Shown: positions 23,686 through 58,786 of the stretch, piece after piece
How the letters are laid out: every line of letters starts with the position of its first letter
Numbering within the stretch: the first letter of the stretch is position 1
Assembly (NCBI GenBank): GCA_025935195.1
Contig: JAICVS010000004.1
Coordinates: 107-64,106 of the forward strand
Length of the DNA: 64,000 nt
Reading direction: 5' to 3'
DNA from: Ktedonobacterales bacterium
GTDB lineage: Bacteria; Chloroflexota; Ktedonobacteria; Ktedonobacterales; JADMIN01
The notes under the pieces: model-generated
Database searches by the model: none
The model's input: the letters and a program-made list of their open reading frames with translations, nothing else
Told to the model about the DNA's origin: nothing
Made by a program: the position numbers and the translations under genes

Positions 23686-24192
23686 CTAGCGCGATGGGCC
23701 ATCTGGCGACGGCAGGCGCAGGTGCGTGCGGACGATGGAGACGACGTGTGAGACGCGGAATGGCTTGGAAATGAAGTCACGCGCGCCCACTATGCGGCTA
23801 CGGACGCGATCGACCATGCCGTCGTGGCTGGTGAGCATGATCACGATCGTGTTGCGGAAGGCGTCGTTGTTGCGCAGGATGCCGGCAACCTGATAGCCAT
23901 CCATCTTGGGCAGCTCGATGTCCAGCAGCACGAGATCGGGCACTTCCACCTCGCCGCGCGAGAGTGCCTGGATGGCGGCGATGCCGTCGGGATACGCACT
24001 GACCGGTAGACCAATGCGCGCGAAGCTGGCCTCGATTACCTTGCGCACGGCCAGCGAATCGTCGATCACCATGATCGAGCGTGGGCCGCTGTGCAGCCCG
24101 TTCGCCCGTGGTACACCCGGCATGCTCAGCAGGCCTGTAGTGGCAGCGGATGGAGCGACGGGTTGATCTCCCGGCGGCATTAGCGAGGACAT
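23686..24192 (-). CDS. single-domain response regulator (CheY/PatA-like receiver)
   Basis: IMVIDDS...DLVLLDIELPKMDG...IVIMLTS...FISKPF are canonical REC motifs. Confidence 0.85.
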   Translation of the reverse strand: MSSLMPPGDQPVAPSAATTGLLSMPGVPRANGLHSGPRSIMVIDDSLAVRKVIEASFARIGLPVSAYPDGIAAIQALSRGEVEVPDLVLLDIELPKMDGYQVAGILRNNDAFRNTIVIMLTSHDGMVDRVRSRIVGARDFISKPFRVSHVVSIVRTHLRLPSPDGPSR

Positions 24193-24288
24193 GGCGCCAT
24201 CCTTTCTACTCGTAACATGCGAGTAACATGCGAGCCGCCGCCGGAAAGCCACCTGTGCGCGAGTGAAGCGGGCGGCGACGTGGCGGGA

Positions 24289-37990: not shown

Positions 37991-38300
37991 AGATGCCCCC
38001 TTTCGCGCGCGTGCGGATGGGTGATGCGGGTCGCCTGCCCGACCACCCGCGGCAGCATAGCAGGTCGCGCCGGGGAGAGCAAGCACGAGAGGCAGAGGCA
38101 GGCTGGCGCGTGATGGGGTTTTCCACATGGGGACGGACACGCGCCCGCGCGGGGCGGCCGGCGATTGCAATCGCGCCTGGAGGGCCGCGAGGGCCGCGCG
38201 TCGCGGACTGGGAGACGCGACGCGCGGATGGGAACCATTTACAAGCTCTGTGGACGGAGACGTGATCACGTCCCCACTACGTCCCGGCGTCCTCCGCGGT

Positions 38301-40391
38301 TCAATTCCGCGCCTCACGCAGCGCCGCGAACCAGGCGCGGTTCATGGCGATGGCGCCGGCCGGGGTGGGATGGATGCCGTCGGGCAGCAGGTAGTTCGGG
38401 TGGGCCGAGAAGAGGGCGTAGAAGTCCGGCCCAGCGGTCAGCCCATCCGCCGCCGTCACCTGATCGATCACGGTGTTCAGCGCGCGCACTTCGGCGTCCA
38501 GCCGCTGGCCGTCCGGCCCGTCGCGGTGGATGTAGGGGATGCGCGCCAGCACCGGCACATGCCCCGCGTGGCGGATCGCCGTCACTATCGCCTCTAGATT
38601 GGCGCGGAAGGCCGTGGGCGCGACCATCTCGAAGGCGTCGTTCGTGCCCCAGCCGAGCAGCCAGTAGTTGAAGTCTGGCGTCAGCTCCAGCAGTTGCCCG
38701 ATCACCCGCGCGCCGCCCGCGGAGTCCCAGCCGCCGAAGCCCTCGTCCAGCATGGCGGGGAAACGGTTCGCGTCCGCCGCGTGGGCGAGCGCCGCGAGGT
38801 CCGGTTGATTCTCGGCGAAGCGGTTGTAGGCCATGACGGTGATCGAATCGCCCATGAAGACGAAGGTGTCCGGCGTGCCACGCGAGGCGTCGTACACGTC
38901 AATCTGGTCGATCTGGATCGCGGGCTGGCTGGCGTGCGGCTGTCCCTGGGTGACTGTCATCTTCACCCACGCCTGGCCGGTGAACGGCAGCAGGTGCTCG
39001 CGCCCGCGCGCCGTGTTCTCCGTGACCGCCGCCACGGTGCGCCAGGTGCCGTCGGCGCCATTGGTGCTGTTCGATGAGACGGAAAGGGTGTAGTCACGCG
39101 GCTCCAGGCCGGTGTCGCTGAGGTAGTCGAAGACGTAATCGCTCACCCAGGTCAGCAGCACGCTCGACGGTCCGACGCCCACGCGGATGGCGCACCACGC
39201 CGGCAGCCCACCCATGCCGGCCTGCCAGAACGACCAGCCGCCGTAGCGCCCGCTGACGATGGCCTCGGCGCCGCCCGCGCCGGTGTTGTTATCCGAGCAG
39301 ACCACCGGCTTGCCGCGCGAGAGCAGCGCGCCGTTCGCGCTGGCCACGGCCGCCGGCCGGTACTGGCGGATCAGGTCACGCAGGGCGGTGTACTGCGGCT
39401 TCGGCTGCCCGTTGGTGACATCCAGCATGTCCAGCCGGCCGTAGCCGGAGTAGCTGGCGGCGTCGAACTGGCAGGCGAAGGCCACGCCGGCTTGCATCAT
39501 CGCGCGCATGGCTGTGGTGGTGAACGCGGTGATGAACGCGGCGTCTTCGCCGTAGACCGGCGGTGGGTTGTTGGGATCGTAGTTCCACTCCGAGACGCCC
39601 ACCGGCAGCGCGTGGCCGAGGGTTTGTCGCGTGAGCCGCTCCACCCCTTGGGCTATTTCGGCGTAGGTGCCGGCCTTCGCCAGGCAGGCGTCTTTCGTGT
39701 CGTTCCAACAGGGATACCAGTGGAAGCTGACGGCGTCTGGCAGCACGCCGGAGTCGCGCACGCCTTGCAGGAACGCTTGCATGTAGTCATGCTGGCCCGC
39801 CGGGGTCGAGGTGGCTGGGCCGATGAACTTCGCGTGCGGGTTGAGCTGGCGCAGCGCCGGGATGGTGGCGTTCCAGAGGCGCACGTAGTCCGCGCTCGAC
39901 ATGTTCGTCAGGTCTGGCTCGTTGCCGAACTCGTAGAGCAGGCAGCGGTCGCTCAGATAGGTCACGACATGGCGCAGGTAGGCGGTATCGCGGATGTCCG
40001 TCAGCACGGCGAGGCAGCGCGCGCCGCTCTGCGTCACCGTGCGCATGCGCTGGTCGAGGGTGTCGTCGGACGCGCCGTCGGGGATGAAGGTGCGGATCAA
40101 TGTGAAGCCGGCGCTGCGCAGCGCGGATTGCAGCGTGGGGTCGGTCTGGAGGTTGCGCGCGGACCATTCATAGGTGTCGTTGGTGCCGAACAGAAAGGAC
40201 GACACGCCGTCGCGCCAGGTCTGCTGGCCTGGCAGCGCGGGAGCGATGAGCGGCGTCGCGGGCGCGGGAGGCTGACTGTAGAGCGGGCGGAACGAGAGCA
40301 CGCCGACCGTGAGCAGCCCGGCCGCACCGATCACGCGCACCAGCCAGTACCCTAGCGATCGCGTGCGCGTCTGGCGTATCTTCTGGCTCAT
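38301..40391 (-). CDS. secreted multidomain carbohydrate-active enzyme (GH-like TIM-barrel region, carbohydrate-binding-like middle, C-terminal SGNH/GDSL hydrolase)
   Basis: An N-terminal signal/anchor is present. YEFGNEPD is a retaining-GH NEP motif. The C-terminal FMGDSIT, GWGTNDA and DGIHPT are SGNH blocks I, III and V. Confidence 0.8.
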   Translation of the reverse strand: MSQKIRQTRTRSLGYWLVRVIGAAGLLTVGVLSFRPLYSQPPAPATPLIAPALPGQQTWRDGVSSFLFGTNDTYEWSARNLQTDPTLQSALRSAGFTLIRTFIPDGASDDTLDQRMRTVTQSGARCLAVLTDIRDTAYLRHVVTYLSDRCLLYEFGNEPDLTNMSSADYVRLWNATIPALRQLNPHAKFIGPATSTPAGQHDYMQAFLQGVRDSGVLPDAVSFHWYPCWNDTKDACLAKAGTYAEIAQGVERLTRQTLGHALPVGVSEWNYDPNNPPPVYGEDAAFITAFTTTAMRAMMQAGVAFACQFDAASYSGYGRLDMLDVTNGQPKPQYTALRDLIRQYRPAAVASANGALLSRGKPVVCSDNNTGAGGAEAIVSGRYGGWSFWQAGMGGLPAWCAIRVGVGPSSVLLTWVSDYVFDYLSDTGLEPRDYTLSVSSNSTNGADGTWRTVAAVTENTARGREHLLPFTGQAWVKMTVTQGQPHASQPAIQIDQIDVYDASRGTPDTFVFMGDSITVMAYNRFAENQPDLAALAHAADANRFPAMLDEGFGGWDSAGGARVIGQLLELTPDFNYWLLGWGTNDAFEMVAPTAFRANLEAIVTAIRHAGHVPVLARIPYIHRDGPDGQRLDAEVRALNTVIDQVTAADGLTAGPDFYALFSAHPNYLLPDGIHPTPAGAIAMNRAWFAALREARN

Positions 40392-44222: not shown

Positions 44223-45425
44223 GCGCCACGTCATCAAGCCGGCTGATCCCCGCTTTGCCGCCCCATTGACTCCGCCGCCTTCGCCTCCAAGAACCTCTAC
44301 AACGCCGCCAACTATGTGGTCCGGCAGTCCTACATCCACGAGGGTGCCTACCTGAACTACCACGAGATGCACCGCCGCATGCAGGACCACGACGCCTACA
44401 AAGCCTTGCCGGCCAAAGTCGCGCAGTGGGTGCTGCGCCTGCTCGACAAGAACTGGCACAGCTACTTCGCCGCCTGCGCGGCCTGGAAAACGGACCCATC
44501 CCAGTTTCTGGGACACCCCAGGTTGCCCGGCTACAAGGACAAACAGCAGGGGCGAAACCTCTTCGTCTACACCATGCAGGCGCTCAGCCTGCCGGCGTTG
44601 CGCGCTGGCCTGATTGTCCCCTCCATGCTGGGCATCACCGTGCGGACCAAGCAGCACAACGTCCAGCAGGTGCGCATCATTCCCCGCATCGGCTTCTATG
44701 TGGTGGAGGTGGTCTATGCGCGTGAGCCGGTCCCGCTAGCCGTGGACCCCGCCCTGCATGCGGGCGTAGATATTGGCTTGAACAATCTGGCGACGCTAAC
44801 TTCAGACAAGCCGGGCTTCGTGCCTCGCATCGTCAACGGGCGGCCAGTGAAGTCCATCAACCAGTTCTACAACAAGCGGCAGGCGGAGGTGCAAAGCCAA
44901 CTGGGAGAGACGCATACGAGCCGGCGCTTGGAGCGCCTCACCACCCGGCGCACCCGGCGGATCGACTGGTATCTGCACACTGCCAGCCGGCGCCTGATTG
45001 ATCTGTTGGTAGCCGAGGGCATCGGCACGCTGGTCATTGGCAAGAACCCGCTCTGGAAGCAGCACGCGCGGCTGGGCCGACGGGGCAACCACAACTTCGT
45101 GAGCGTGCCCCACGCCCGCTTCATCGAGATGCTGACCTACAAAGCCGAATTGGTGGGCATTCAGGTGATCGTGACCGAGGAGAGCTACACCAGCAAGGCC
45201 AGCTTCCTCGATGCGGACCCGCTCCCCGTCTACAACGCCGCCCGTTCCGATCAACCACGTTTTAGCGGGCGGCGAGTGAAGCGTGGGCTGTACCGGGCGG
45301 CGGATAGGCGGCCCATCAATGCCGATGTCAACGGCGCCTACAACATCATCCGCAAAGTAGCTCCTGAGGCGTTCGCGCAAGGGAGTAGAGGGTGCGTAGT
45401 TCCCCCGGTGCGGCTCGCCGCATAA
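44209..45425 (+). pseudogene. tnpB: tnpB (RNA-guided-nuclease family OrfB), disrupted by a frameshift near 44257-44264
   Basis: ATG 44209 reads MQLVERHVIKPADPRFAA and then stops at 44353-44355. The conserved continuation IDSAAFASKNLYNAANYVVRQ…(RuvC-like, zinc-finger region)… lies in the -1 frame (track ORF 44316-45425). Confidence 0.8.
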
Positions 45426-45544
45426 ACCGATCAATAGTTCGCTAGAGATTGGGAACTATCGGGCCCATGTCGCCGCCGTTCCAGCATGCCGAGGAGTCCC
45501 AGGAGCCTAACATGCCGCGCATTGTTGGAGCGCCTGGGCATTGA

Positions 45545-46621
45545 GCCGCGCTGAGGCTGATCGCGCTGGTTATCCTGTCGGAAGCGCTCGACGCCAACGG
45601 CTTCTTCACATGGGCGGCGCTCCGCCTTGCCCGCGCGGCCGGCGGCTCCGGCCCGCGCTGCTCGCCAACGACGGCGCGGTGCTGATGCTGACGCCGATCT
45701 TCGCCACGCTGCTGCTACGTATCTACCCGGACCGGCGCCACCGCCTGCCCTTCATTTTCGCGGCTGGCTTCTTTGCCGATGCCATGAGTGGTCTCTTCAT
45801 CCCCAGCAACCTGACCAACATCATCCTCGCTGACGCCACGCATCTCTCCTTCGCGCGCGCCGCGGTCTGGATGGCGCTACCGACCATCGCGGCTTTCCTT
45901 GTGGGGGCCGGCGCCTTTGGCTGGCGCTTCCGCCGCGATATTCGTAAGCTGTACGATCCGTCGGCTGTGGCTGATCCCGCCGGCGCGATCCGCGATCCGC
46001 TCGTCTTCCGCGCGGGCTGGGTCATTCTCGGCATGATGGTCATCGGCTACATCATCGGCAGCGAGCCGCGGCTGCCGGTTTCGCTCGTCGCGGGCGGCGC
46101 GGCGATCCTGCTGCTCGCGCTCGTGCAGGTGCGGGGGCTGCGCTCGGCCGGTGAGGCACTGCGGGCGGCGCCGTGGAATATCCTGATCTATGCGCTGGGC
46201 ATGTTCGTGGTGATCACCGCCGCGTACAAGGCGCACCTGCTCGGCTTCCTGACCGCGCCGCTGCGCGCTGGTGTCGCGCCCGCCGCTGGAGCCGGCAGGG
46301 GCGTTGCGCGCGGGGGGCATTCTGGCCTTGCTGACGGCGGCCGTCAACAACCTGCCCGCCACGCTCACCGGCGTGCTGGCGCTGCACACGGCGCCCGTTA
46401 CGTCGTCGCTCGCCACCTATGCGATCATGCTCGGTGTGGATATCGGCGCGAAGCTCACGCCGTTCGGCTCGCTGGCGACGCTGCTCTGGCTGGGCATACT
46501 GCGCCGCCACGGCATCGCGATCTCGTGGGGCCGCTATCTGCGTGAGAACTGGTGGGTGACGATGCTGACGTTGGCCGCCGCTTTCGGCGCGCTACTCGCG
46601 GCCAATGCCGTCCTTGGATGA
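45545..46621 (+). pseudogene. ArsB/NhaD-superfamily permease, 5'-truncated with at least two frame disruptions
   Basis: Three frames each carry consecutive family-like segments: LIALVILSEALDANGFFTWAALRLARAAGGSGPR, then LANDGAVLMLTPIF…, then …LTAAVNNLPATLTGVLAL…FGSLATLLWLGILRRHGI. Confidence 0.7.
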
Positions 46622-47109: not shown

Positions 47110-47378
47110 GATGGCTCCCTCACTGGACTCGACAAGCGGCGCCGGTCGCTCGTAGTATACCCTGCTCGCTCGCCTAGGTCGGTCCGTCACCTCGCGAGAT
47201 GTGCCACTGGCTCGCTCGTGTCAGACTTTACACGGTTGTCAATGGGGCATCTCCATTCGGCATGCAATGTGCGGGCTTGTGACGGTGTGGCAGATGCCGC
47301 GTGCCGGGCGCGTGCTCCGGCGTGCGGCCACCCTTGGCGCCACGCTCTGAACTGCGTTCCGAACAGGAGGGTCCGTGC

Positions 47379-47894
47379 ATGTCGAATCAGGACTACGACC
47401 AGAATCAGTCGCCAGACCAGACCGCGCAGGGGCAGGATCAGCTCGGCCAGCAGCAGCAATATGATCCCGCGTCCGGGCAGACGGATCAGGGGCAGAGCGG
47501 CCAGGGCTATGGCGGCTCGTTCGATCCGGCTACGCAGCAGCAGGGCCAGTACGGGCAGTCGGGCGGCATGGGTACGACCGACCAGAGCGGCATGGGCGGC
47601 CAGGGATACGACCAGTCCGGCCAGATGGGGCAGTCCGGCCAGTCGGGGCAGGATCAATTCGGCGGCGCGCGCCAGGCGGCGCAGGGGCAGGTGGACAACG
47701 CGATTGACCAGTTCGCCAACCGCATCCCCGGCGGCGCGGCGCACGCCCAGCAGGCCAAGGACGCGGCGAACCAGGGGATTGACAACTTAGAGCAGGAGGC
47801 TGAGAACCGCATGGGCAACGCCGGTGGCGGCATCGGCGGGACGCTCGGCGGCATGTTTGGCGGCAATTCAGGCGACCAGGGCGGCCAGCCGTAA
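47379..47894 (+). CDS. Q/G-rich low-complexity protein
   Basis: AGGAGG (47365-47370) precedes ATG 47379. Most of the protein is G/Q/S/D repeats (QGQ, GQSGQ), with a helical C-terminal segment. Confidence 0.65.
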   Translation: MSNQDYDQNQSPDQTAQGQDQLGQQQQYDPASGQTDQGQSGQGYGGSFDPATQQQGQYGQSGGMGTTDQSGMGGQGYDQSGQMGQSGQSGQDQFGGARQAAQGQVDNAIDQFANRIPGGAAHAQQAKDAANQGIDNLEQEAENRMGNAGGGIGGTLGGMFGGNSGDQGGQP

Positions 47895-48402: not shown

Positions 48403-48635
48403 GCCGCGCCTCCGTACCGAGTGCAGCCATCGCCCGCTCGATGTCTCCGCAGTGCATAACACCTCGGTATGTCTCCGAATGTCTCCGATCCTTGGTGGTG
48501 TCGCGGGTGGTGTCGCGACGTTGACATCGCGTGGCGACGCGGTACACTACCACAGGCGGCAGGCGACGAGCGACACATTCGCGCAGCGCGGCCGCTAGCG
48601 ATCTTCCGCTCCCAGACTGAAGGAGACGGCCCAGC

Positions 48636-49712
48636 ATGATCCTCGACACACTCGACCTCGACGACGCGGAGTTTGCCCGCCGGACGGGCTGGGAGATCAA
48701 GCCGGAGGGCGCGTGCCGGGACGACCGCTGCGTGCCGCTGCCGGCGATGCCGGACGTGGCAGTGGGACACGTGGATGTGCGGGTGTTCGCCGAACGGCTG
48801 GGGATGCCGCTGTTACATGACGAGGCGCACGGGTTGTGGAGCCTGGGGCCGGAGGCGGGCGGGCGGATGCTCGCTTCCGCCGCGCTCCCCGACATTGAGC
48901 TGCCCGACCTGGACGGCAACCTCTTCGCGCTGCGCGTGTTGCGTGGGCAGAAGGTGCTGCTGTTGGCGTGGGCGTCGTGGTGAGGCTGCCGCTTCGATCT
49001 GCCCGTGTGGCAGACTTTGCGCGCCGAGCTGCATCCCCATGGTCTCGAAGTCGTCACCGTCGCGCTGGATACGGGCGGCGCGGAGGCCGCGCGCCGCTGG
49101 ATTGACGCCGCTCACCCTGAGCATCCCGCGTTGATCGATCAGGCGCACCAACTCGATGCGCTGCTGGGCATCGTCAACGTGCCGAGCGGAGTGTGGATTG
49201 ACGAGCGGGGCATGATTGTGCGCCCACCGGAGCCGGCGTTTCCGCAGCGGCCCGCCTTTCAGAACGTCGATCCGGACAACCCGGCGCTGATCGAACGCTA
49301 CCGCGACAATCCGCGCGGGCTGGAGGTGGTGCGCGAGGTGCTGAAGCTGCGCATCGAGCCGGAGGCGTATGTGGCGGCGCTGCGCGATTGGGTGGCAAAC
49401 GGCGCGGCCAGCCGCTACGCGCTGGCGCCGGATGAGGTCGTGCGCCGCTCGCGCCCGCGCCCGCCTGAGGTCGCCGAGGCGGCGGCCAGCTTCGAGCTGG
49501 GGCAGCATGTGTATCGCCTGGGTGATCAGGCGGGGGCCGTCGGCTGGTTCCGTCGCGCGCACCGCCTCCAGCCCGACAACTGGACGTACAAGCGCCAGGC
49601 GTGGTCGTTCGCCGATCCGCGCCAGGGGCCGACCGAGCTCTATGAGGGCGACTGGCTCAGCGATGTGCGCGCGAGTGGCGCGGAGAACTACTATCCGCCG
49701 CTCGATCTGTAG
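48636..49712 (+). CDS. ResA/TlpA-like thioredoxin-fold protein with in-frame TGA (candidate selenocysteine, W-A-S-W-U-G-C motif)
   Basis: GAAGGAGA precedes ATG 48636. Track ORFs 48636-48983 and 49005-49712 share one frame with no other stop between them. TGA 48981-48983 falls at the first redox position of the motif: ...VLLLAWASW-U-GCRFDLPVWQTLRAELHPHGLEVVTVALD. Confidence 0.7.
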
Positions 49713-49764: not shown

Positions 49765-50007
49765 ATGCCCACGCTCGCGGACGCGCTCGCCGCCGGACAG
49801 TTCGCCCGCCTACGGGCCGGGATGGCGACGGTGGATGCGCATGAGGACATTACCGGAGAGTACAGCGTTACCCTCCGCTATGGCATGGGGCCGACGCGGC
49901 TGATGGGCCGCTTCACCAGCTTCGCCGAGGTGGAAGCCTATCTGGGTACGGGCGCCATCTCTGGCGTGACGGGCGATGAAGCGGCCTGGGAGCCGATGCC
50001 GGCGTAA
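49765..50007 (+). CDS. small hypothetical protein
   Basis: GGGGGAG lies 7 nt upstream of ATG 49765. No family recognised. Confidence 0.5.
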   Translation: MPTLADALAAGQFARLRAGMATVDAHEDITGEYSVTLRYGMGPTRLMGRFTSFAEVEAYLGTGAISGVTGDEAAWEPMPA

Positions 50008-50331: not shown

Positions 50332-53283
50332 ATGGCAGCGCATCGGCTAGCGGCGGTCTCAGAGCTGGGGCAGAGCATCTGGTACGACAACATCCGCCGC
50401 GGCCTCATCCAATCGGGCGAGCTGCAACGCCTCATTGACGAGGATTCGATTACCGGCATTACCTCGAATCCGACGATCTTCGAGAAGGCGATTGACGGCA
50501 GCGACGATTACGATGAGACGATCCGCGCGCTGGTCAGCCGCGGCGTGAATGACGCTCAGCAGGTCTTCGAGACGCTGGCAATCGAGGATATTCAAGCCGC
50601 CGCCGATATGCTGCGCCCGATCTACGACCGCACCCACGGCGGTGACGGCTTCATCAGCCTGGAGGTCTCGCCCGCCGCCGCCAACGATACACAGCGCACT
50701 ATCGCCGAGGCACGCCACCTCTTTCAGCGCGCGGACCGCCCCAACGTCATGATCAAGATTCCCGCGACCGCCGAGGGACTGCCCGCTATCGAGCAGATGG
50801 TCTACGAGGGCGTCAATATCAACATCACGCTGATCTTCGCACTGGAGGTCTACGAGAAGGTCGCCGAGGCGTTCATTCGTGGGCTGCGCCACCGCCAGGC
50901 CGACGGCCAATTTGTCTCGGGCATCGCCTCCGTCGCCAGCTTTTTCGTCAGCCGCGTGGACACGCTGGTGGATAAGCAGCTTCAGGAGCGGATTGACGCC
51001 GCGAGCGACGACGCCAAGAAAGAGGAACTGCGCGCGCTGCTCGGCACGGCCGCCATCGCCAACGCGCGCATCGCGTACGAGTCGTATCAGCGCCTCTTCC
51101 ACGGCGACCATTTCGCGGCGCTGCGTGAGCGCGGCGCGGCGCCGCAACGCTGCCTCTGGGCCAGCACGAGCACCAAGAATCCCAGCTACCGCGATGTGCT
51201 CTACGTCGAGCAGCTGATCGGCCCGGAGACGGTGGACACGATGCCTCCGGCGACCATCCAGGCGTTCCAAGATCACGGCGTGGCCGAGCGTACGCTGGAC
51301 ACTGGCGACGCCTTCGCCGCCGCGCACGAGACGGTGCGCCGCCTCGCCGAGGCCGGCATTGAGATGCGCCAGGTGACAAAACAGCTCGAGATTGAAGGCG
51401 TCAAGACCTTCGCCGACGCTTACCCCCAGATGATTGACCGTACTGGTGACAAGATCGCGCGGCTGCGGAGTGAGATGGAGGCTCAGGGCGACGGGGCTGG
51501 GGTACGTGCGGCTACTGACACCAGCGCGGCGGGGGCAAGCGCGGGAGCGGGTGCCGCCGGCGGCGAGCATGACGAGCTGGGCGAGCTACAGGCCGAGGTG
51601 GATCGCGCGCTCACGCGCGCCGAGACGGAACAGTTCGCGCGGCGTGTCTGGGAGAAAGATCCGGCGTTGTGGAAGCCGAACCCCAGCGAGCAGAGTGAGA
51701 TCACCGACCGCCTGGGCTGGCTGACCGTCACGGAGACGATGCGCGAGGCGCTGCCGCGGCTGCGCGCGCTACGCAACGACGTGCGCGCCGCGGGGATGAC
51801 GCATGCCGTCTTACTGGGCATGGGCGGCAGCAGCCTCGCCCCGGAGGTGCTGCGCGAGACGTTCGGCACGGCGGAGGGCCAGCCTCAACTGATCGTGCTC
51901 GATACGACCGATCCGGCGACGATCCTGGATGCCGAGCGCGAGATCGATCTGGTACACACGATCTTCATCGTCGCCTCGAAGTCCGGCGGCACCATCGAGA
52001 CGCTTACCCAGTTCGCCTACTTCTACGAGAAGGTGCAGGCCATCGCCGGCGACCAGGCGGGGCGCCAGTTCCTCGCCATCACCGATCCCGGCACCAAGCT
52101 GGAGACGATGGGCCACGACCACCACTTCCGCGAGGTTTTTCTGAACCCGCCCGACATTGGCGGCCGCTATTCGGCGCTCTCTTTCTTCGGGCTGGTGCCG
52201 GCGGCGATCATCGGTGTGGATGTGGAGAAGCTGCTGGACCGCGCCGACGCCATGCGCGCGGCCTGCGCGCCCGACCGCCCGGCGCACGAGAACCCCGGCC
52301 TGCGGCTCGGCGCGATTCTGGGCACGCTCGCCAACGGCGGGCGCGACAAGGTGACGCTGGTGATGTCGCCGCCGATCAGCACCTTCGGCTACTGGATCGA
52401 GCAGTTGATCGCGGAAAGCACCGGCAAGGAGGGCAAGGGCATTCTGCCGGTCGAGGGCGAGCGGCTCGGCCCGCCGGAGGTGTATGGCAGCGACCGCCTC
52501 TTCGTCTCGTGCCGGACCGAGCAGGGCTTCGATGCGGGGCAAGATGAGGCGCTGCGCGCGCTGGCGGCGGCCGGGCAGCCAGTGGTGGCGCTGCCGCTGC
52601 GCGACCGCTACGACCTGGGGGCCGAGTTCTTCCGCTGGGAGTTCGCTACGGCCATCGCGGGCGCGCTGCTGGGCATCAACGCCTTCGATCAGCCCAATGT
52701 GCAAGAGGCCAAGGACCGCACCGACGCGATTCTGAAGCAGTATGCCGCGGAGAAGGCGCTGCCGCGGCCGCCGGCTATCCTGCGCACCGAACAGGTCGCT
52801 ATCGTGGCCGGGGAGGACGAGGCGCACCGTCTGGCGGAGGCTGTCTCGCTGCAAGCCGCACTCGAAGCCTATCTGCGCCAGGTGCGCCCCGGCGATTACG
52901 TCGCGTTGCTGGCGTACGTGCGGCGCGGCGCGGCCACCCAGGAGGCGCTGGAACGCATCCGCCTGCGCATCCGCGATCTGTGCCACGTCGCCACCACGCT
53001 TGGCTACGGCCCACGCTTCCAGCACTCGACCGGCCAGCTCCACAAGGGCGGCGCCAACAACGGCGTCTTCATTCAGTTCGTCGCCGACGACCACGAGGAC
53101 GCGCCGATCCCCGGCCGGCCGTTCACCTTCGGCACGCTCAAACAGGCGCAGGCGCTCGGCGATCTGCAAGCATTGGAGGCGCATGAGCGCCGCGCCATCC
53201 GCATCAATCTTGGCGCGAGCATCGCGGGGGGCCTGGGCGAGGTCGGCCAAGCGCTCGACGCGGCACAGCTTCAACGGGGATAA
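50332..53283 (+). CDS. tal-pgi: bifunctional transaldolase / glucose-6-phosphate isomerase fusion
   Basis: The N-terminal SIWYDNIRR…ITGITSNPTIFEKAI…MIKIPAT is transaldolase. The C-terminal half (…LLGMGGSSLAPEV…IVASKSGGTIET…) is a PGI SIS domain. Confidence 0.93.
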   Translation: MAAHRLAAVSELGQSIWYDNIRRGLIQSGELQRLIDEDSITGITSNPTIFEKAIDGSDDYDETIRALVSRGVNDAQQVFETLAIEDIQAAADMLRPIYDRTHGGDGFISLEVSPAAANDTQRTIAEARHLFQRADRPNVMIKIPATAEGLPAIEQMVYEGVNINITLIFALEVYEKVAEAFIRGLRHRQADGQFVSGIASVASFFVSRVDTLVDKQLQERIDAASDDAKKEELRALLGTAAIANARIAYESYQRLFHGDHFAALRERGAAPQRCLWASTSTKNPSYRDVLYVEQLIGPETVDTMPPATIQAFQDHGVAERTLDTGDAFAAAHETVRRLAEAGIEMRQVTKQLEIEGVKTFADAYPQMIDRTGDKIARLRSEMEAQGDGAGVRAATDTSAAGASAGAGAAGGEHDELGELQAEVDRALTRAETEQFARRVWEKDPALWKPNPSEQSEITDRLGWLTVTETMREALPRLRALRNDVRAAGMTHAVLLGMGGSSLAPEVLRETFGTAEGQPQLIVLDTTDPATILDAEREIDLVHTIFIVASKSGGTIETLTQFAYFYEKVQAIAGDQAGRQFLAITDPGTKLETMGHDHHFREVFLNPPDIGGRYSALSFFGLVPAAIIGVDVEKLLDRADAMRAACAPDRPAHENPGLRLGAILGTLANGGRDKVTLVMSPPISTFGYWIEQLIAESTGKEGKGILPVEGERLGPPEVYGSDRLFVSCRTEQGFDAGQDEALRALAAAGQPVVALPLRDRYDLGAEFFRWEFATAIAGALLGINAFDQPNVQEAKDRTDAILKQYAAEKALPRPPAILRTEQVAIVAGEDEAHRLAEAVSLQAALEAYLRQVRPGDYVALLAYVRRGAATQEALERIRLRIRDLCHVATTLGYGPRFQHSTGQLHKGGANNGVFIQFVADDHEDAPIPGRPFTFGTLKQAQALGDLQALEAHERRAIRINLGASIAGGLGEVGQALDAAQLQRG

Positions 53284-53307
53284 TGCCTGTAGAGGGTGGT
53301 TTAAAGA

Positions 53308-53368
53308 ATCCCAGTCCGCGCAGGCGGACTTCGCGGCGGCACGCCCCTGGGTGCGGGTGTACCCGCCG
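53308..53368 (-). repeat. REP-like element, family B, copy 5 (inverted relative to copy 4)
   Basis: The rc reads GGCGGGTACACCCGCACCCAGGGGCGTGCCGCCGCGAAGTCCGCCTGCGCGGACTGGGAT. Confidence 0.8.
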
Positions 53369-53429
53369 GCCCGCTCCGCCAGCGCGCATACGCAAGCCCT
53401 GACGAGAGAGAAGAGGGAGAGACAAGACG

Positions 53430-54362
53430 ATGGAAGTGGGACTCTACGGCCTCGGCCGCATGGGCGGCAATATGGTCATTCGCTTGCTGCGCGGCGGCCA
53501 CCGCGTCGTCGCCTCGAACCGCAGCCGCGGTCCGGTGGATGAGGCGGCGGGGCAGGGCGCCGTCCCGGCCTACACGCTGGACGAGCTGGTGCAGACGCTG
53601 CAATCCAGCCCCAAGATCGTCTGGCTGATGGTGCCATCTGGCAAGGTGACGGACGATACCATTCACTACGTGATGAAGCTGCTCAAGCCCGGCGACATCA
53701 TCATTGACGGCGGCAACTCCAACTGGAAGGACACCGTGCGGCACGCCGAAGAGGTGAAGGGCGCGGGCATCCACTTCCTCGACGTCGGCACCAGCGGCGG
53801 CATCTGGGGCCTCAAAGTCGGCTACAGCCTGATGATCGGCGGCGAGCGCGAGGCCTTCGAGCAGTGTGAGCCGATCTTCAAGACGCTCGCGCCGGAGAAC
53901 GGCTATGGCTATATGGGCGCCAGCGGCGCCGGCCACTTCGTCAAGATGGTTCACAACGGCGTTGAGTACGGCATGCTCCAGGCGTACGGCGAGGGTTTCG
54001 AGATCATCGAGAAGTCGCAGTTCAAGCCCGATCTGCGCGAGGTGACGCGCGTCTGGCAGAATGGCAGCGTCGTGCGCTCCTGGCTGCTGGACCTGGCGGC
54101 GCTGGCCTTCGCCGACGATCCGGAGTTGGAGAAGATTCGCGGCTACGTCGAGGACTCCGGCGAGGGGCGCTGGACCGTGCAGGCCGCCATAGACGAGAAC
54201 GTGCCGGCGCCGGTGATCACGCTCTCGCTCTTGCAGCGCTTCGTCTCGCGGCAGGATGAATCGTTCTCGGCGAAGGTGATCGCGGCGCTGCGCAACCAGT
54301 TCGGCGGCCACGCCGTCACCTTCGAGACGGGCGAGACCGGCGGCGTGCGGCACCAGGCATAG
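53430..54362 (+). CDS. gnd: 6-phosphogluconate dehydrogenase, decarboxylating (short, about 300-aa form)
   Basis: MEVGLYGLGRMGGNMV is the Rossmann start. …IIIDGGNS… and …GTSGGIWG…GYSLMIGG… follow. GAGGGAGAG precedes the ATG. Confidence 0.9.
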   Translation: MEVGLYGLGRMGGNMVIRLLRGGHRVVASNRSRGPVDEAAGQGAVPAYTLDELVQTLQSSPKIVWLMVPSGKVTDDTIHYVMKLLKPGDIIIDGGNSNWKDTVRHAEEVKGAGIHFLDVGTSGGIWGLKVGYSLMIGGEREAFEQCEPIFKTLAPENGYGYMGASGAGHFVKMVHNGVEYGMLQAYGEGFEIIEKSQFKPDLREVTRVWQNGSVVRSWLLDLAALAFADDPELEKIRGYVEDSGEGRWTVQAAIDENVPAPVITLSLLQRFVSRQDESFSAKVIAALRNQFGGHAVTFETGETGGVRHQA

Positions 54363-54455
54363 GGACAACCGGCGCGCTCTCTGACGCCCGCTCCGCGCGG
54401 AGCGGGCGTCGAGGGTAAGGAACTTCGGCGGCAGGTTAGAGAAAGGGGCAGGTTG

Positions 54456-56015
54456 ATGGACATCGCGACCGTCCAGCCGAATCCGCTGCGCGCGGGCATG
54501 CGGCACGCGCGCAGCGTGCAGCCGTGCGTGATGGTGATCTTCGGCGCCACCGGCGACCTCACGCATCGCAAGCTGCTGCCCGCGCTCTACAACCTGGCGC
54601 TGGAGCAGCCGCTGCCGCCGCAGTTCAGCGTGGTCGGCGTCGCACGCCGCCCGTTCTCGAACGATGACTTTCGCCAGCAGGCGCTGGATTCCATCAACCA
54701 GTTCTCACGCCGCCGGCCCGTCAACCAGGCTGTCTGGGAGACGTTCTCCAAGGGGCTGTATTACCATCAGTCGCAGTTCGACGACCCGGAAGGCTACGAG
54801 AGCCTGGTGGAGCTGCTCAAGCAGATTGACGAGGAGCGCGGCACCCTGGGCAACCACATTTTCTACCTGGCGACGCCGCCCAGCTTCTACCCCATCATCG
54901 CCGACCATCTCAGCGCCGCCGGCCTCGCGCGCCGCCGCCGCGCTGAGGATGACTCCAAGGGCTACGCGCGCATCATCGTCGAGAAGCCGTTCGGCCACGA
55001 CCTGCAATCGGCGCTGGCGCTCAACAAGGAGCTGAACAAAGCGTTCTCCGAGCGGCAGATCTACCGCATTGACCACTATCTCGGCAAAGAGACCGTGCAG
55101 AACATCATGGTGCTGCGCTTCGGCAACGGCATCTTCGAGCCGATCTGGAACCGGCGCTACGTGGACAACGTGCAGATCACCGTCGCGGAGACGCTGGGTG
55201 TGGAGGGGCGCGGCGACTACTATGAGGAAGCGGGCGCGATGCGCGACATGGTGCAGAACCATATGATGCAGCTGCTCACGCTGGTGGGCATGGAGCCGCC
55301 GGTCAACTTCGACGCGGACGCCGTGCGCGACGAGAAGGTGAAGGTGCTGCGCGCCATCCCGCCGCTGATGGAGAACGAGATCGCCGCCGATACGGTACGC
55401 GGGCAGTACGGCCTTGGCATGATCGGCGGCCAGCCGGTCAAGGGCTATTGCGAGGAGAAGAACGTCGCGCCCGCGTCGAAGACGGAGACGTTCGTCGCGC
55501 TCAAGCTGTTCATCGAGAACTGGCGTTGGGCCGGCGTGCCGTTCTACCTGCGCACCGGCAAGCGGCTCGCCAAGCGCACCACCGAGATCGCCATCCAGTT
55601 CAAGCGTCCGCCGTACATGCTCTTCCGCGGCACCGGCGCCGATCAGCTTCAGCCGAACGTGCTGTCGCTGCGCATCCAGCCGAACGAGGGTATCTCGCTG
55701 TTCTTCGAGGCCAAGGTTCCCGGCCAGGAGATGCACCTGCGCGGCGTGAACATGGACTTTCTTTACGGCAGCTCCTTCGGCGTCGAGCCGCCTGAGGCGT
55801 ACGAGCGGCTTCTGCTCGAATGTATGCTCGGCGACTCCACCCTTTTCACGCGCATTGACGAGACGGAGTATTCCTGGACGCTCGTGGACAGCATCGAGCG
55901 CGCGTGGGCCAAACTGCCCGCCTCGGCGATCCCGCAGTACGAGCCGGGTACGTGGGGCCCGAAGGAAGCGGACGCCTTGATCGAACGCGACGGCCGAACC
56001 TGGAGGCGGTTATGA
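54456..56015 (+). CDS. zwf: glucose-6-phosphate 1-dehydrogenase
   Basis: IFGATGDLTHRKLLPAL, RIDHYLGKE and EKPFG are canonical Zwf motifs. GAAAGGGG precedes ATG 54456. Confidence 0.95.
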   Translation: MDIATVQPNPLRAGMRHARSVQPCVMVIFGATGDLTHRKLLPALYNLALEQPLPPQFSVVGVARRPFSNDDFRQQALDSINQFSRRRPVNQAVWETFSKGLYYHQSQFDDPEGYESLVELLKQIDEERGTLGNHIFYLATPPSFYPIIADHLSAAGLARRRRAEDDSKGYARIIVEKPFGHDLQSALALNKELNKAFSERQIYRIDHYLGKETVQNIMVLRFGNGIFEPIWNRRYVDNVQITVAETLGVEGRGDYYEEAGAMRDMVQNHMMQLLTLVGMEPPVNFDADAVRDEKVKVLRAIPPLMENEIAADTVRGQYGLGMIGGQPVKGYCEEKNVAPASKTETFVALKLFIENWRWAGVPFYLRTGKRLAKRTTEIAIQFKRPPYMLFRGTGADQLQPNVLSLRIQPNEGISLFFEAKVPGQEMHLRGVNMDFLYGSSFGVEPPEAYERLLLECMLGDSTLFTRIDETEYSWTLVDSIERAWAKLPASAIPQYEPGTWGPKEADALIERDGRTWRRL

Positions 56016-57340
56016 GCGAGACCCAAGAGACCCAGCAAACGCATCAGGCAGAGGCGGGCGCATCCGGCGTGCGGGGCATGCGCCCGGTGGCGCTGGATGC
56101 CGTCGAGAGCGAGCTGGATAATATGTGGCGCGACGCCAACGCGCGTATCGCGGCGACCGGCGGCCACGCCATCGCGCGCAACAGCGTGCTCACGCTCGTC
56201 GCCTTCACGCACGGTGAGGACGATGCCCGCCACCTGCTCAGGCGCATCCACGCCCTGAGCACGCAGCACCCCTCGCGGGCGATCATTGTCGCCGCCGACC
56301 CACATGATCGCGGCCATGACATGCGCGCCTACATCTCCACCTATACCTCCACAGACCTCGCCTCCTACGGTGAGGACATCGTCGTCGTCGCGCAGAGCGA
56401 GGCCATCCGCCACCTGCCGGGGCTGGTGCTGCCGCTGATCGTCTCCGGTCTGCCCGCCTTTCTCTGGTGGACCGGCGAGCCGCCCTGGGGCAGCGAACTG
56501 CTCGAAGCGCTCGTAGATGGCAGCGACCGCCTGATCGTGGACACGACCGAGATGGCGCATGCGGCGCAGAGCGTCGGCGCGCTGGATGACCTGATGCGCC
56601 GCAAAGCTGGCCGCTGCGCCGTCAGTGACATCAGTTGGACCGCGCAGACGCCGTGGCGCGAAGTGATCGCCCAGTTCTTCGACGCACCCGCCGCGCGCCC
56701 CTATCTCGATACGATCGAGCGGGTCACCATCGAGTATGCCGCCGGCGAGGAGGACGCCCCAACCAACAGCAGCCAGGCGTACCTCTTTGCCGGTTGGCTG
56801 GCCTCGCGGCTGGGTTGGCGTGCCGCCACGTCACAGCCGTCGGGCGTCGGCGCGAGTCGCGAGCATGCGTTGCGCGACGGCGGCGGCCGGACCATCAATC
56901 TGGAGATCAGCGCGCGCTACGGCGTGCCACAGCGCATCTGGTGGCAGAGCGATGAGGCTGGCAGCGAGGTGGATGACACTCCCCCCGACAACGGCGCCTC
57001 ATCCCAGAACGGCCGCGCGCAATCGTCCGCTCAACCCGCCGCCACTGCCGCCGCGTGGGTGCGGCCCGGCGCGCTGATGCTCGTCCACCTGACCGCGCGC
57101 CTCAATGGGGCACGAGCTACCTTCGCGCTGGCGCGCGAGCAAGACCTCGCCCACGCCACTACCCTCTGCCAGATTCCCCACACCGCCACCCCGTCGCAGA
57201 CCATTCACCTGCAATCGCTCGGCGAGCGCAGCCCCCTCGCCGCCCAGCTTCAGGAATTGGGGCACGACAGCGTCTTCGAGGAGGCGCTCGACGCCGCGGC
57301 CCAGCTCATGGGTGCCGGGCCGCGCAGGGGGGTCAGATGA
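56012..57340 (+). CDS. opcA: glucose-6-phosphate dehydrogenase assembly protein OpcA
   Basis: It follows zwf with an ATGA overlap. …NSVLTLVAF…, …SRAIIV… and …LPAFLWWTGEPP… are OpcA-type motifs. Confidence 0.8.
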   Translation: MSETQETQQTHQAEAGASGVRGMRPVALDAVESELDNMWRDANARIAATGGHAIARNSVLTLVAFTHGEDDARHLLRRIHALSTQHPSRAIIVAADPHDRGHDMRAYISTYTSTDLASYGEDIVVVAQSEAIRHLPGLVLPLIVSGLPAFLWWTGEPPWGSELLEALVDGSDRLIVDTTEMAHAAQSVGALDDLMRRKAGRCAVSDISWTAQTPWREVIAQFFDAPAARPYLDTIERVTIEYAAGEEDAPTNSSQAYLFAGWLASRLGWRAATSQPSGVGASREHALRDGGGRTINLEISARYGVPQRIWWQSDEAGSEVDDTPPDNGASSQNGRAQSSAQPAATAAAWVRPGALMLVHLTARLNGARATFALAREQDLAHATTLCQIPHTATPSQTIHLQSLGERSPLAAQLQELGHDSVFEEALDAAAQLMGAGPRRGVR

Positions 57341-58101
57341 TGTCATCGCCAGATGAGCGCATCCATCTCGTCGTCGCCGAGGACTTGAACGGCGTCGCTC
57401 GGCTCGGCGCGGACCTCTTCGTCGCGTTGGCGCGCAAGGCCGCGGCGGTCGGCCATGAGTTCGCCGTCGCGCTCTCCGGCGGCTCCACGCCCAAACTGAT
57501 GCACCGGCTGCTGGCCGGCGATCCCTACCGCACGGAGGTGGAGTGGTCGCGCGTACAGTTTTACTGGGGCGACGACCGCCACGTCGCGCCCGACGACCCC
57601 GACTCCAACTTCCGTATGGCGCGCGAGACACTGCTCGACGCGGTGCCACTGCGCGAGGAGCAGATCCATCGCATGCACACCGAGGAGGCGGACGCGCGCG
57701 TCGCGGCCGACCTCTATGAGCAGGAGCTACGGCAATACTTCGGACTGGCGCCCGGCCAGCTCCCGCGTTTCGACCTGATCTACCTGGGCATGGGACCGGA
57801 CGGCCATACCGCTTCGCTCTTCCCGCACACGCCCGCGCTGCATGTCGCGGATCGTCTGACGGTGGCGAACCCGGTGGCGAAGCTCAACACCGACCGCATC
57901 ACGCTCACCGCGCCGGTTATCAACAACGCCGCCGCCGTCGCCTTCCTGGTCGCCGGGGCGGACAAGGCGCCCGCCCTCGCCGCCGTCCTCGACGGCCCGC
58001 GCGATCCCGATGAGTATCCGTCGCAGCGCATCCATCCGTCCGACGGCGAGCTGTACTGGTATGTGGACCGCGCGGCGGCGTCACAACCGCGCGCCCGCTA
58101 G
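57337..58101 (+). CDS. pgl: 6-phosphogluconolactonase
   Basis: ALSGGSTP, FYWGDDR, FDLIYLGMGPDGHTASLFP. It overlaps opcA by ATGA. Confidence 0.9.
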   Translation: MMSSPDERIHLVVAEDLNGVARLGADLFVALARKAAAVGHEFAVALSGGSTPKLMHRLLAGDPYRTEVEWSRVQFYWGDDRHVAPDDPDSNFRMARETLLDAVPLREEQIHRMHTEEADARVAADLYEQELRQYFGLAPGQLPRFDLIYLGMGPDGHTASLFPHTPALHVADRLTVANPVAKLNTDRITLTAPVINNAAAVAFLVAGADKAPALAAVLDGPRDPDEYPSQRIHPSDGELYWYVDRAAASQPRAR

Positions 58102-58129
58102 CGCGGGGGGATTGGGAAGGAGCAGGGGC

Positions 58130-58786
58130 ATGACGTTGGTGGTGCCGTCAATTCTCTCGGCGGATTTCGCTCGCCTGGGCGAGCAGGTGCGCGAAGCGGC
58201 GGCGGCGGGGGCCGATCGGCTCCAGATTGACGTGATGGACGGCCGTTTTGTGCCGAATATCACCGTTGGGCCGCTCGTCGTGGAAGCGGTACGCCGCCAC
58301 ACCACGCTGCCGCTCGAAGCGCATCTGATGATTGTCGAGCCGGAACGCTATCTGAGTGACTTCGCCAGCGCCGGCGCCGACGTGATCATCGTCCACCAGG
58401 AGGCCTCGCCCCACCTCCACCGCACCATCGAGCAGATACGCCGCCTCGGCAAGCGCACGGGCGTTGCCATCAATCCCGCCACCCCGCTCGTCGTGCTTCA
58501 GGAGGTGCTGAACGAGCTCGACCTTGTGCTGTGCATGACGGTGGACCCAGGCTTCGGCGGTCAGGAGTTCATTCGCGCCACGCTGCCCAAAATCGAGCGG
58601 CTGCGCGGCATGATCACGCAGCACGGTGCGGGCTGTGACCTCGAAGTGGACGGGGGCATATCCGCCGCCACCGCCCCGCTCGCCGTGCGCGCGGGCGCAA
58701 ACGTGCTGGTCGCCGGCTCCGCTGTCTATGGCGATCCGGAAGGCGTGGCCGCTGGCATCGCCCGGCTGCGCGCCGCGCTGGCGTGA
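58130..58786 (+). CDS. rpe: ribulose-phosphate 3-epimerase
   Basis: PSILSADFARLGEQV…, QIDVMDGRFVPNIT, HLMIVEPERY, MTVDPGFGGQ. GGAAGGA precedes ATG 58130. Confidence 0.95.
   Translation: MTLVVPSILSADFARLGEQVREAAAAGADRLQIDVMDGRFVPNITVGPLVVEAVRRHTTLPLEAHLMIVEPERYLSDFASAGADVIIVHQEASPHLHRTIEQIRRLGKRTGVAINPATPLVVLQEVLNELDLVLCMTVDPGFGGQEFIRATLPKIERLRGMITQHGAGCDLEVDGGISAATAPLAVRAGANVLVAGSAVYGDPEGVAAGIARLRAALA

What the first reader, a model, noticed from the sequence alone, without database searches (positions are those of the whole stretch)
48636..49712. ResA/TlpA-like redoxin with TGA in a W-A-x-x-U-G-C active-site motif: second candidate selenoprotein
Track ORFs 48636-48983 and 49005-49712 are in one frame, separated only by TGA 48981-48983. 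Read through, the sequence is ...GQKVLLLAWASW-U-GCRFDLPVWQTLRAELHPHGLEVVTVALD..., a thiol-disulfide oxidoreductase (TlpA/ResA/redoxin) signature with Sec at the position of the first active-site Cys. I recall that a 'ResA-like WAxxUGC motif' selenoprotein family has been named in protein-family databases; this needs verification. A candidate hairpin starts 3 nt after the TGA: CTGCCGC (48986-48992) pairs with GTGGCAG (49007-49013), giving 7 bp including one G-U and a 14-nt loop. The redoxin core is flanked by an N-terminal domain of about 80 aa and a C-terminal extension of about 130 aa.
Basis: partly seen in the sequence, partly recalled or inferred. Interest (0 to 1): 0.65.

Follow-up and report, generated by a model that had tools for sequence, protein, structure and literature searches.

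The report
Known UGC-motif redoxin selenoprotein gene
This is one gene whose internal TGA very probably encodes selenocysteine in the active site of a thioredoxin-fold redox protein; the gene family is already catalogued, so the call is correct but ordinary, and what the protein does is still unknown.

Summary
ORFs 48636-48983 and 49005-49712 form one frame interrupted only by TGA 48981-48983. The 358-aa read-through matches NCBIfam NF041054 ("ResA-like WAxxUGC motif-containing protein") end to end at 560 bits (cutoff 300). [quoted passage not shown]

- **TGA position:** it aligns with an invariant Cys in 117 of 117 full-length homologues.
- **Sec forms elsewhere:** 115 of 120 genome loci carrying the TGA version read through into homologues, most of them spanning both sides of the TGA.
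- **Close relatives:** two independent assemblies keep the TGA and show mostly synonymous changes on both sides of it.
- **TGA is a normal stop here:** it ends 14 of 29 genes in the window.

The real bSECIS is a 6-bp stem with a 5-nt N-G-[G/U]-N-U loop at 48998-49014. It is supported by covariation, by codon bias and by its absence from Cys forms.

Sec machinery could not be checked for this genome, a probable soil Ktedonobacterales MAG.

Added here:
- The motif is UxC, one residue shorter than CxxC.
- The protein is a soluble three-domain protein.
- The N-terminal domain carries an invariant Cys pair and has no relative among solved structures.
- No gene neighbour is conserved.

The parts
48620..48625 (+). 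Shine-Dalgarno-like AAGGAG, 10 nt upstream of the ATG
   Evidence: Read directly from the sequence. No comparable site precedes GTG 49005.
48636..49712 (+). Complete selenoprotein CDS of 358 codons (Sec at codon 116) plus a TAG stop; a member of NCBIfam NF041054 (WAxxUGC_long)
   Evidence: 560 bits, cutoff 300, full length. Synonymous versus non-synonymous codon differences against close relatives are 2/0 and 15/3 upstream of the TGA and 10/1 and 23/5 downstream.
48636..48875 (+). N-terminal domain (~80 aa) with the invariant motif G-A-C27-x4-C32-V-P (Cys codons 48714-48716 and 48729-48731)
   Evidence: Invariant columns G18, W19, G25, C27 and C32 in 48 sequences. AF2 model pLDDT 84.5. No significant match in the PDB; best E = 0.68.
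48879..49226 (+). Thioredoxin-fold redoxin domain (residues ~82-197) of the TlpA/ResA/DsbE type
   Evidence: Pfam AhpC-TSA and Redoxin hits. PDB sequence hits 3kcm, 1jfu and 4nmu. Foldseek hits to ResA, target TM 0.72-0.77.
48969..48989 (+). Active-site motif W-A-S-W-U-G-C (residues 112-118)
   Evidence: Invariant in the family. One residue shorter than the CxxC of TlpA/ResA.
48981..48983 (+). TGA read as selenocysteine (residue 116)
   Evidence: Aligned with Cys in 117 of 117 full-length homologues. Conserved as TGA in 115 homologous genome loci and in two close relatives.
48998..49014 (+). bSECIS core hairpin: 5' arm UCUGCC 48998-49003, loop CGUGU 49004-49008, 3' arm GGCAGA 49009-49014
   Evidence: 97.6% of cells paired in 103 Sec forms, 33 two-sided changes, 0 of 500 shuffles reach it. 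RNAalifold predicts the same helix. All six pairs form in 88/103 Sec forms against 1/29 Cys forms. Folds at -8.5 kcal/mol, z = -2.95. Meets the published bSECIS criteria.
49227..49709 (+). C-terminal, mainly helical domain (~160 aa) with one weak TPR-like repeat (residues 281-315, nt 49476-49580) and the conserved P-D-N-W-T-Y-K-R-Q-A-W segment
   Evidence: Pfam TPR_2 and TPR_16 hits are below their cutoffs. Secondary structure from the AF2 model. Invariant P313, W316, T317, R320 and W323.

Best explanation
Positions 48636-49712 are one gene for a soluble, cytoplasmic, three-domain selenoprotein of the known 'ResA-like WAxxUGC' family. The ribosome reads UGA 48981-48983 as selenocysteine. A small stem-loop begins 15 nt after the UGA's last base, and its apical loop begins 20 nt after it (stem 48998-49003 with 49009-49014, loop CGUGU). 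This stem-loop would recruit SelB carrying Sec-tRNA(Sec). That last step is inferred from the general bacterial mechanism. The stem-loop is written into the codons for D-L-P-V-W-Q, which is why Sec forms are restricted to L-[P/S]-[V/G]-W-[Q/R/E] at those positions. Sec116 sits where the attacking Cys of the thioredoxin-fold CxxC sits, at the start of the first helix. Cys118, only one residue away (a UxC spacing), most likely resolves the intermediate by forming a selenenylsulfide. On this reading the protein is a thiol/selenol-disulfide oxidoreductase. Its substrate is unknown. The invariant Cys27/Cys32 pair in the N-terminal domain may be a second redox or metal site. Shown here: one reading frame, family membership, the Cys/Sec column, and the conserved, covarying SECIS. 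Inferred: actual Sec insertion, the roles of Sec116 and Cys118, and the cytoplasmic location.
For: Family membership. Cys at the TGA column in 117 of 117 full-length homologues. Of 120 TGA-version loci from many phyla, 115 read through into homologues, most spanning both sides of the TGA. Two independent assemblies (99.2% and ~93% nt identity) keep the TGA and hairpin, one with a synonymous TGC>TGT next to it. Differences are mostly synonymous on both sides of the TGA. The hairpin is 97.6% paired with 33 two-sided changes, and 0 of 500 shuffles reach it. RNAalifold finds the same helix. The loop is N-G-[G/U]-N-U in 103 of 103 Sec forms, and all six pairs form in 88/103 Sec forms against 1/29 Cys forms (Fisher p = 1e-16). 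The stem Leu codon is YUG in 99/102 genes against 49.6% elsewhere in the same genes (p = 2e-26); Leu/Gln synonymous covariation has p = 2e-5 and column 18/34 covariation p = 6e-14. The hairpin meets all four criteria of the published bSECIS model (loop 3-9 nt, stem 4-16 bp, G in the first two loop positions, 16-37 nt spacing, MFE <= -7.5). TGA ends 14 of 29 genes in the window, so the genetic code is standard. An SD site precedes ATG 48636 and none precedes GTG 49005. There is no hydrophobic segment (max KD 1.13). The UxC versus CxxC alignment. The AF2 model is a compact three-domain protein (pLDDT 92.9, pTM 0.91). Ktedonobacter racemifer, type species of the likely class, is scored SelD+, SelA+, SelB+ with 5 selenoproteins.
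Against: No selA, selB, selD or tRNA-Sec was found in the 64-kb window, and the rest of the genome could not be reached. The Sec trait of this organism is therefore unproven. There is no protein-level or selenium-labelling evidence for any member of the family that I could find. The covariation statistics are not corrected for phylogeny. The Cys-form control is small (29 sequences) and comes from a different collection. The whole 71-nt region does not fold better than shuffles (z = -0.39); only the 21-nt core does. The catalytic roles are inferred by analogy with CxxC redoxins.
Confidence: 0.9

Rival explanations
1. The TGA is a true stop. The locus is a broken or split gene giving a 115-aa N-terminal fragment, possibly with a separately initiated 235-aa protein from GTG 49005.
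For: Gene callers produced exactly this split in public data (P0002 and P0051; called genes). Sec machinery is not shown for this genome.
Against: The break would fall inside the thioredoxin fold at exactly the catalytic residue. The same TGA is kept in 115 homologous loci across phyla and in relatives at 93-99% identity, with mostly synonymous change on both sides. A covarying hairpin that Cys forms lack follows the TGA. No SD site precedes GTG 49005.
Confidence: 0.03
2. The TGA is read through without selenocysteine, for example by near-cognate Trp or Cys insertion or under a reassigned genetic code.
For: Low-level UGA read-through occurs in bacteria (general knowledge). Nothing at the protein level is known for this family.
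Against: TGA terminates 14 of 29 confident genes in the window, so the code is not reassigned. The conserved element downstream has the specific features of a bSECIS (G-[G/U] in a small loop, 20-nt spacing). The recoded position is a catalytic Cys column, which is the classic Sec/Cys pattern.
Confidence: 0.04
3. The protein is a peroxiredoxin, as JGI annotations of its Cys homologues say, and uses Sec as the peroxidatic residue.
For: The Pfam AhpC-TSA hit is above its cutoff (42 bits against 26). Many homologues are named 'peroxiredoxin' by JGI. The 2008 paper called the family 'Prx-like (UGC-containing)'.
Against: The Prx signature P-x3-[T/S]-x2-Cp is absent. Position -3 is an invariant Ala and position -7 is L/M/I/V in 48 of 48 sequences. 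The best sequence and fold matches are TlpA, ResA and DsbE, not Prx. Peroxidase activity of a Sec redoxin is still chemically possible.
Confidence: 0.1

Closest known systems
NCBIfam NF041054 'ResA-like WAxxUGC motif-containing protein' (WAxxUGC_long). Most likely the same family as 'Prx-like (UGC-containing)' of Zhang & Gladyshev 2008 (PMC2398784), 'Prx-like (distant, UGC-containing)' of Peng et al. [quoted passage not shown]
   Same: Full-length match to the model (560 bits, profile positions 1-353 of 354). Same W-A-S-W-U-G-C motif, same three-domain layout and same Sec/Cys alternation.
   Different: Nothing of substance; this is an ordinary member. I did not verify sequence by sequence that the literature families equal the NCBIfam model. 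That equivalence rests on the shared motif, fold and names.
ResA / TlpA / DsbE (CcmG) / StoA extracytoplasmic thiol-disulfide oxidoreductases
   Same: Same thioredoxin-fold redoxin domain (target TM 0.72-0.77 to ResA). Same W-A-x-W lead-in to the active site, and the attacking residue is in the same position.
   Different: The motif is UxC/CxC rather than CxxC, a one-residue deletion. There is no membrane anchor or signal peptide. There are extra N- and C-terminal domains. Scores are far below the family cutoffs: ResA 46 against 170, TlpA 42 against 230. No cytochrome-maturation genes lie nearby.
Eukaryotic SELENOF (Sep15), a thioredoxin-like selenoprotein with a CxU motif
   Same: A thioredoxin-like fold whose redox pair is separated by a single residue and includes Sec (motif as stated in the abstract of PMC9304195, listed).
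   Different: The order is reversed (C-x-U against U-x-C). It is eukaryotic and ER-resident, uses a 3'-UTR SECIS, and no sequence homology was shown here.
Consensus bacterial SECIS model (Zhang & Gladyshev, as summarised in PMC13188914)
   Same: A 5-nt apical loop with G at position 2 followed by G or U, a 6-bp upper stem, 20 nt between the UGA and the loop, and -8.5 kcal/mol.
   Different: This is a very short element. No conserved lower stem or bulge was detected in the family. SelB binding is not tested.

Membership tests
NCBIfam NF041054 WAxxUGC_long | Whole-protein HMM score above the curated cutoff (300 bits), end to end | tested here: met
   560.1 bits, protein 1-357 on profile positions 1-353 of 354.
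NCBIfam NF041054 WAxxUGC_long | W-A-x-x-U-G-C motif with TGA (or Cys) at the U position | tested here: met
   W112-A-S-W-U116-G-C118. The motif is invariant in 48 aligned members.
Bacterial selenoprotein gene | In-frame UGA aligned with Cys in homologues | tested here: met
   117 of 117 full-length homologues have Cys at that column.
Bacterial selenoprotein gene | [quoted passage not shown] | tested here: met
   6-bp stem, loop CGUGU, 20-nt spacing, -8.5 kcal/mol.
Bacterial selenoprotein gene | The SECIS is conserved and covaries in Sec forms and is relaxed in Cys forms | tested here: met
Bacterial selenoprotein gene | The genome encodes SelA, SelB, SelD and tRNA-Sec | not testable with these tools
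   None is in the 64-kb window, and other contigs of the MAG could not be reached. Indirect support only: Ktedonobacter racemifer is SelD+, SelA+, SelB+.
Bacterial selenoprotein gene | Selenium is incorporated in the protein | not testable with these tools
   Needs 75Se labelling or mass spectrometry.
ResA / TlpA / DsbE cytochrome-maturation redoxins | C-x-x-C active site | tested here: not met
   U-G-C, with a one-residue deletion relative to C-x-P-C.
ResA / TlpA / DsbE cytochrome-maturation redoxins | N-terminal membrane anchor or signal peptide (extracytoplasmic location) | tested here: not met
   Acidic N-terminus; maximum 19-residue Kyte-Doolittle hydropathy is 1.13.
ResA / TlpA / DsbE cytochrome-maturation redoxins | Score above the family cutoffs | tested here: not met
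   ResA 46.2 against 170, TlpA 41.8 against 230, DsbE 24.7 against 123.
Peroxiredoxin (AhpC/TSA) | P-x3-[T/S]-x2-C peroxidatic motif | tested here: not met
   Position -3 is an invariant Ala and position -7 is L/M/I/V. The Pfam AhpC-TSA domain hit itself is above its cutoff.

The most novel reading that the evidence does not exclude
The four invariant Cys/Sec residues are the only ones in the protein: C27 and C32 in a family-specific N-terminal domain with no solved structural relative, and U116 and C118 in the redoxin domain. They might form one composite centre, either an internal dithiol-to-selenenylsulfide electron relay or a four-ligand metal or metalloid site. That would make this a mechanistically new kind of cytoplasmic selenoenzyme rather than a simple redoxin. 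The existence of short relatives that lack the N-domain argues that this domain is an accessory.
Probability: 0.15. Interest if true: 0.5.

Novelty: already known. Interest (0 to 1): 0.25.

Why it matters
For annotation, the two called ORFs (also split in public gene calls P0002 and P0051) should be merged into one selenoprotein CDS. The family is widespread in soil bacteria, occurs in both Sec and Cys forms, and has no known function. Its UxC motif, one residue shorter than the classic CxxC, and its extra domains make it a reasonable target for biochemistry. The precisely mapped 17-nt SECIS, which visibly dictates the amino acids L-[P/S]-[V/G]-W-Q, is a clean example of an RNA signal constraining a protein sequence. 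It could also serve as a family-specific marker for finding Sec forms. None of this changes the picture of selenoprotein biology.

Tried and rejected
It is present in this sequence, but across 103 Sec forms it is no better than shuffled columns. It is a by-product of the Gly-Cys-Arg codons. Rejected as the SECIS.
- **Folding the whole 71-nt region.** Not distinguishable from shuffles in this GC-rich context.
- **Rfam.** No hit near the locus.
- **Sec machinery or tRNA-Sec.** Not found in the window, nor tRNA-Sec in 60 Sec-form loci. This is uninformative.
- **A second selenoprotein candidate in the window.** Two GC3-based scans found none that was convincing.
- **Conserved gene neighbours across 146 loci.** None found; the largest real neighbour cluster is an SDR-like gene in 11 loci. 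The adjacency to the pentose-phosphate cluster and to the ArsB remnant is therefore probably incidental.
- **Fold search of the N-terminal domain.** No significant PDB match.
- **Structure prediction of the window protein with U replaced by C.** The 65%-identical Cys homologue P0001 was folded instead.
- **Literal search for 'WAxxUGC' in papers.** No hits. The family was found under other names.

Full report
**1. The observation**

Translating window 48636-49712 gives 358 codons with one internal stop, TGA at 48981-48983, and a terminal TAG. Codon-position GC is typical of real genes in this 67% GC window on both sides of the TGA, with GC3 of 0.90 upstream and 0.84 downstream. An AAGGAG Shine-Dalgarno sequence lies 10 nt before ATG 48636. 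Nothing comparable precedes GTG 49005.

**2. What the protein is**

With U replaced by C, the protein matches NCBIfam NF041054.1, 'ResA-like WAxxUGC motif-containing protein' (WAxxUGC_long, equivalog). The score is 560 bits against a cutoff of 300, covering profile positions 1-353 of 354.

Pfam finds only the central AhpC-TSA/Redoxin domain (residues ~82-196) and a sub-threshold TPR repeat at 281-315. ResA, TlpA, StoA and DsbE models all score far below their cutoffs.

The family is also in the literature under other names:
- 'Prx-like (UGC-containing)', with 46 Sec sequences and 855 Cys homologues in the GOS survey (PMC2398784).
- 'Prx-like (distant, UGC-containing)', found in 15 sequenced organisms (PMC5029168 supplement).

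I take these to be the same family on the basis of motif, fold and names. I did not verify this sequence by sequence.

**3. Is the TGA decoded?**

Several independent lines say yes.

(a) Of the best 120 database homologues, 117 are full length (316-378 aa) and all carry W-A-S-W-C-G-C. The TGA therefore sits on an invariant Cys column. The three others are not full-length. Two of them, P0002 and P0051, are C-terminal pieces from close relatives, cut by gene callers at the same TGA.

Of these, 115 read through into homologues of the window protein, most spanning both sides of the TGA (29-65% identity). They come from Chloroflexota, Actinomycetota, Acidobacteriota, several Proteobacteria classes, Rokubacteria and Firmicutes MAGs.

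(c) Two independent metagenome assemblies, at 99.2% and about 93% nucleotide identity, have the same TGA. One has a synonymous TGC>TGT in the next-but-one codon. Synonymous versus non-synonymous codon differences are 2/0 and 15/3 upstream of the TGA, and 10/1 and 23/5 downstream. Both halves are therefore under purifying selection in one frame.

(d) TGA is the ordinary stop of 14 of 29 confident genes in the window. The genetic code is standard and this TGA is a local exception.

**4. The SECIS**

Anchoring 103 Sec-form sequences on the TGA gives an ungapped alignment (A1). RNAalifold predicts a single helix, columns 18-23 with 29-34. In the window this is:
- 5' arm UCUGCC, 48998-49003
- loop CGUGU, 49004-49008
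- 3' arm GGCAGA, 49009-49014

Pair counts give 97.6% of cells paired and 33 cells changed on both sides. None of 500 column shuffles reaches these values, and every slid register collapses to 28-67% paired.

The loop reads N-G-[G/U]-N-U in all 103 sequences.

All six pairs form in 88 of 103 Sec forms. Only 1 of 29 Cys-form family members does so; these were retrieved with the matching TGY pattern from metagenomes (Fisher p = 1e-16).

The signal is not a side effect of conserved amino acids:
- The stem Leu codon is CUG or UUG in 99 of 102 genes, against 49.6% of Leu codons elsewhere in the same genes (p = 2e-26).
- The Leu first base (C/U) covaries with the Gln third base (G/A), p = 2e-5.
- The Asp third base covaries with the first base of the codon after Gln, p = 6e-14 (not corrected for phylogeny).
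- One genome (L011) has the stem CUCUCC/GGGAGG, with Gln changed to Glu, which preserves the pairing.

At the protein level the RNA leaves a footprint. Sec forms allow only L (one V) - P/S - V/G - W - Q/R/E at these positions. Cys forms also use G, N or Q at the first position, A, N, G, K, R, Y or H at the second, L, I, M, E, Y or H at the third, and A or S at the last.

The element meets all four criteria of the published consensus bSECIS model:
- 3-9 nt loop
- 4-16 bp stem
- G within the first two loop positions, usually followed by G or U
- 16-37 nt between UGA and loop (20 nt here), with MFE <= -7.5 kcal/mol (-8.5 here, z = -2.95)

Across the family it is 83.9% paired, exactly the shuffle mean, and shows no covariation. 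It reflects the Gly-Cys-Arg codons and is rejected.

**5. Architecture and likely mechanism**

HMMER aligns W-A-S-W-C-G-.-C-R with W-A-T-W-C-x-P-C-R of TlpA and related structures. Sec116 therefore takes the place of the attacking Cys. The partner Cys118 is one residue closer than in CxxC, giving a UxC motif.

The protein has no hydrophobic segment or signal-like N-terminus. Unlike ResA, TlpA and DsbE, it should be cytoplasmic.

It contains only four Cys/Sec residues: C27, C32, U116 and C118. All are invariant in 48 aligned members.

An AlphaFold model of the 65%-identical Cys homologue P0001 is confident and compact (pLDDT 92.9, pTM 0.91). Foldseek matches only the central domain, to ResA, TlpA and DsbE (target TM 0.72-0.77, query TM about 0.30). 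The N-terminal domain modelled from the window's own 115-aa ORF (pLDDT 84.5) has no significant PDB neighbour (best E = 0.68).

The peroxiredoxin signature is absent.

My best reading is a cytoplasmic selenol/thiol-disulfide oxidoreductase. Sec116 attacks the substrate and Cys118 resolves the intermediate as a selenenylsulfide. This step is inferred by analogy, and the substrate is unknown. The N-terminal Cys pair could be a second redox or metal site.

No neighbouring gene is conserved across 146 loci, so genomic context gives no functional lead.

**6. Organism and Sec trait**

The window is part of a 64,232-nt NCBI contig. A protein more than 90% identical to its tal-pgi fusion protein is annotated in a Ktedonobacterales MAG. 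The locus recurs in soil and rhizosphere metagenomes from about ten studies.

No selA, selB, selD or tRNA-Sec lies in the window, and the rest of the genome was out of reach. The Sec machinery of this particular organism therefore remains untested.

Indirectly, Ktedonobacter racemifer is scored SelD+, SelA+, SelB+ with 5 selenoproteins in Peng et al. 2016.

**7. Verdict**

It describes a member of an already catalogued selenoprotein family, so novelty is low.

The added value here is:
- the precise, comparatively validated SECIS;
- the recognition that the motif is a shortened UxC in a soluble three-domain protein;
- the family-specific N-terminal Cys-pair domain;
- the lack of any conserved gene neighbourhood.

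Noticed in passing
window 44316-46621: The ArsB-like permease is a remnant. Pfam ArsB profile positions 105-309 lie in ORF 45541-46545, and positions 317-414 lie in a different frame (ORF 46271-46621). The first ~104 profile positions are missing. A TnpB gene (OrfB_IS605 plus Cas12f1-like TNB domain) lies directly upstream at 44316-45425 (+), which suggests disruption by an IS605-family element.
   Followed up: partly
window 50332-58786: An oxidative pentose-phosphate cluster lies immediately downstream of the selenoprotein gene: a 983-aa transaldolase/phosphoglucose-isomerase fusion, a 6PGDH-like gene, G6PD, OpcA and ribulose-phosphate 3-epimerase. The adjacency is kept in the 99%-identical relative L240 but is not seen next to the family in other lineages.
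   Followed up: partly
loci L032, L066, L067, L071, L098, L105 (Dehalococcoidia/Chloroflexota MAGs): A short (~230 aa) TGA-containing relative lacks the N-terminal Cys-pair domain. It keeps W-A-S-W-U-G-C-R..L-P-[V/G]-W-Q and the C-terminal E-P-D-N-Y..R-K-Q-x-W-A domain. Two of them were tested and score only 144-171 bits on NF041054 (cutoff 300), with no other NCBIfam model above its cutoff. This appears to be a sibling family without its own model in that release.
   Followed up: partly
window 49765-50007 (+): An 80-aa ORF just downstream of the selenoprotein gene is called as a gene in both close relatives (L240, L241). It has no Pfam or NCBIfam hit.
   Followed up: partly
window 19629-25560 (-): A chemotaxis-like signalling cluster: a CheA-type hybrid histidine kinase with Hpt, CheW and receiver domains (1118 aa), a CheW gene, a response regulator and a DUF4388 protein.
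   Followed up: no
window 7960-10674 (-) and 36401-38317 (-): Candidate defence-type genes: an Eco57I/MmeI-type restriction-modification methylase (904 aa) and a 638-aa protein with a C-terminal TIR domain.
   Followed up: no
window 47301-47894 (+): A 197-aa Gln/Gly/Asp-rich, low-complexity ORF about 740 nt upstream of the selenoprotein gene, with no family hit.
   Followed up: no
Two scans for in-frame TGAs with coding signal on both sides found no other convincing candidate.
   Followed up: partly
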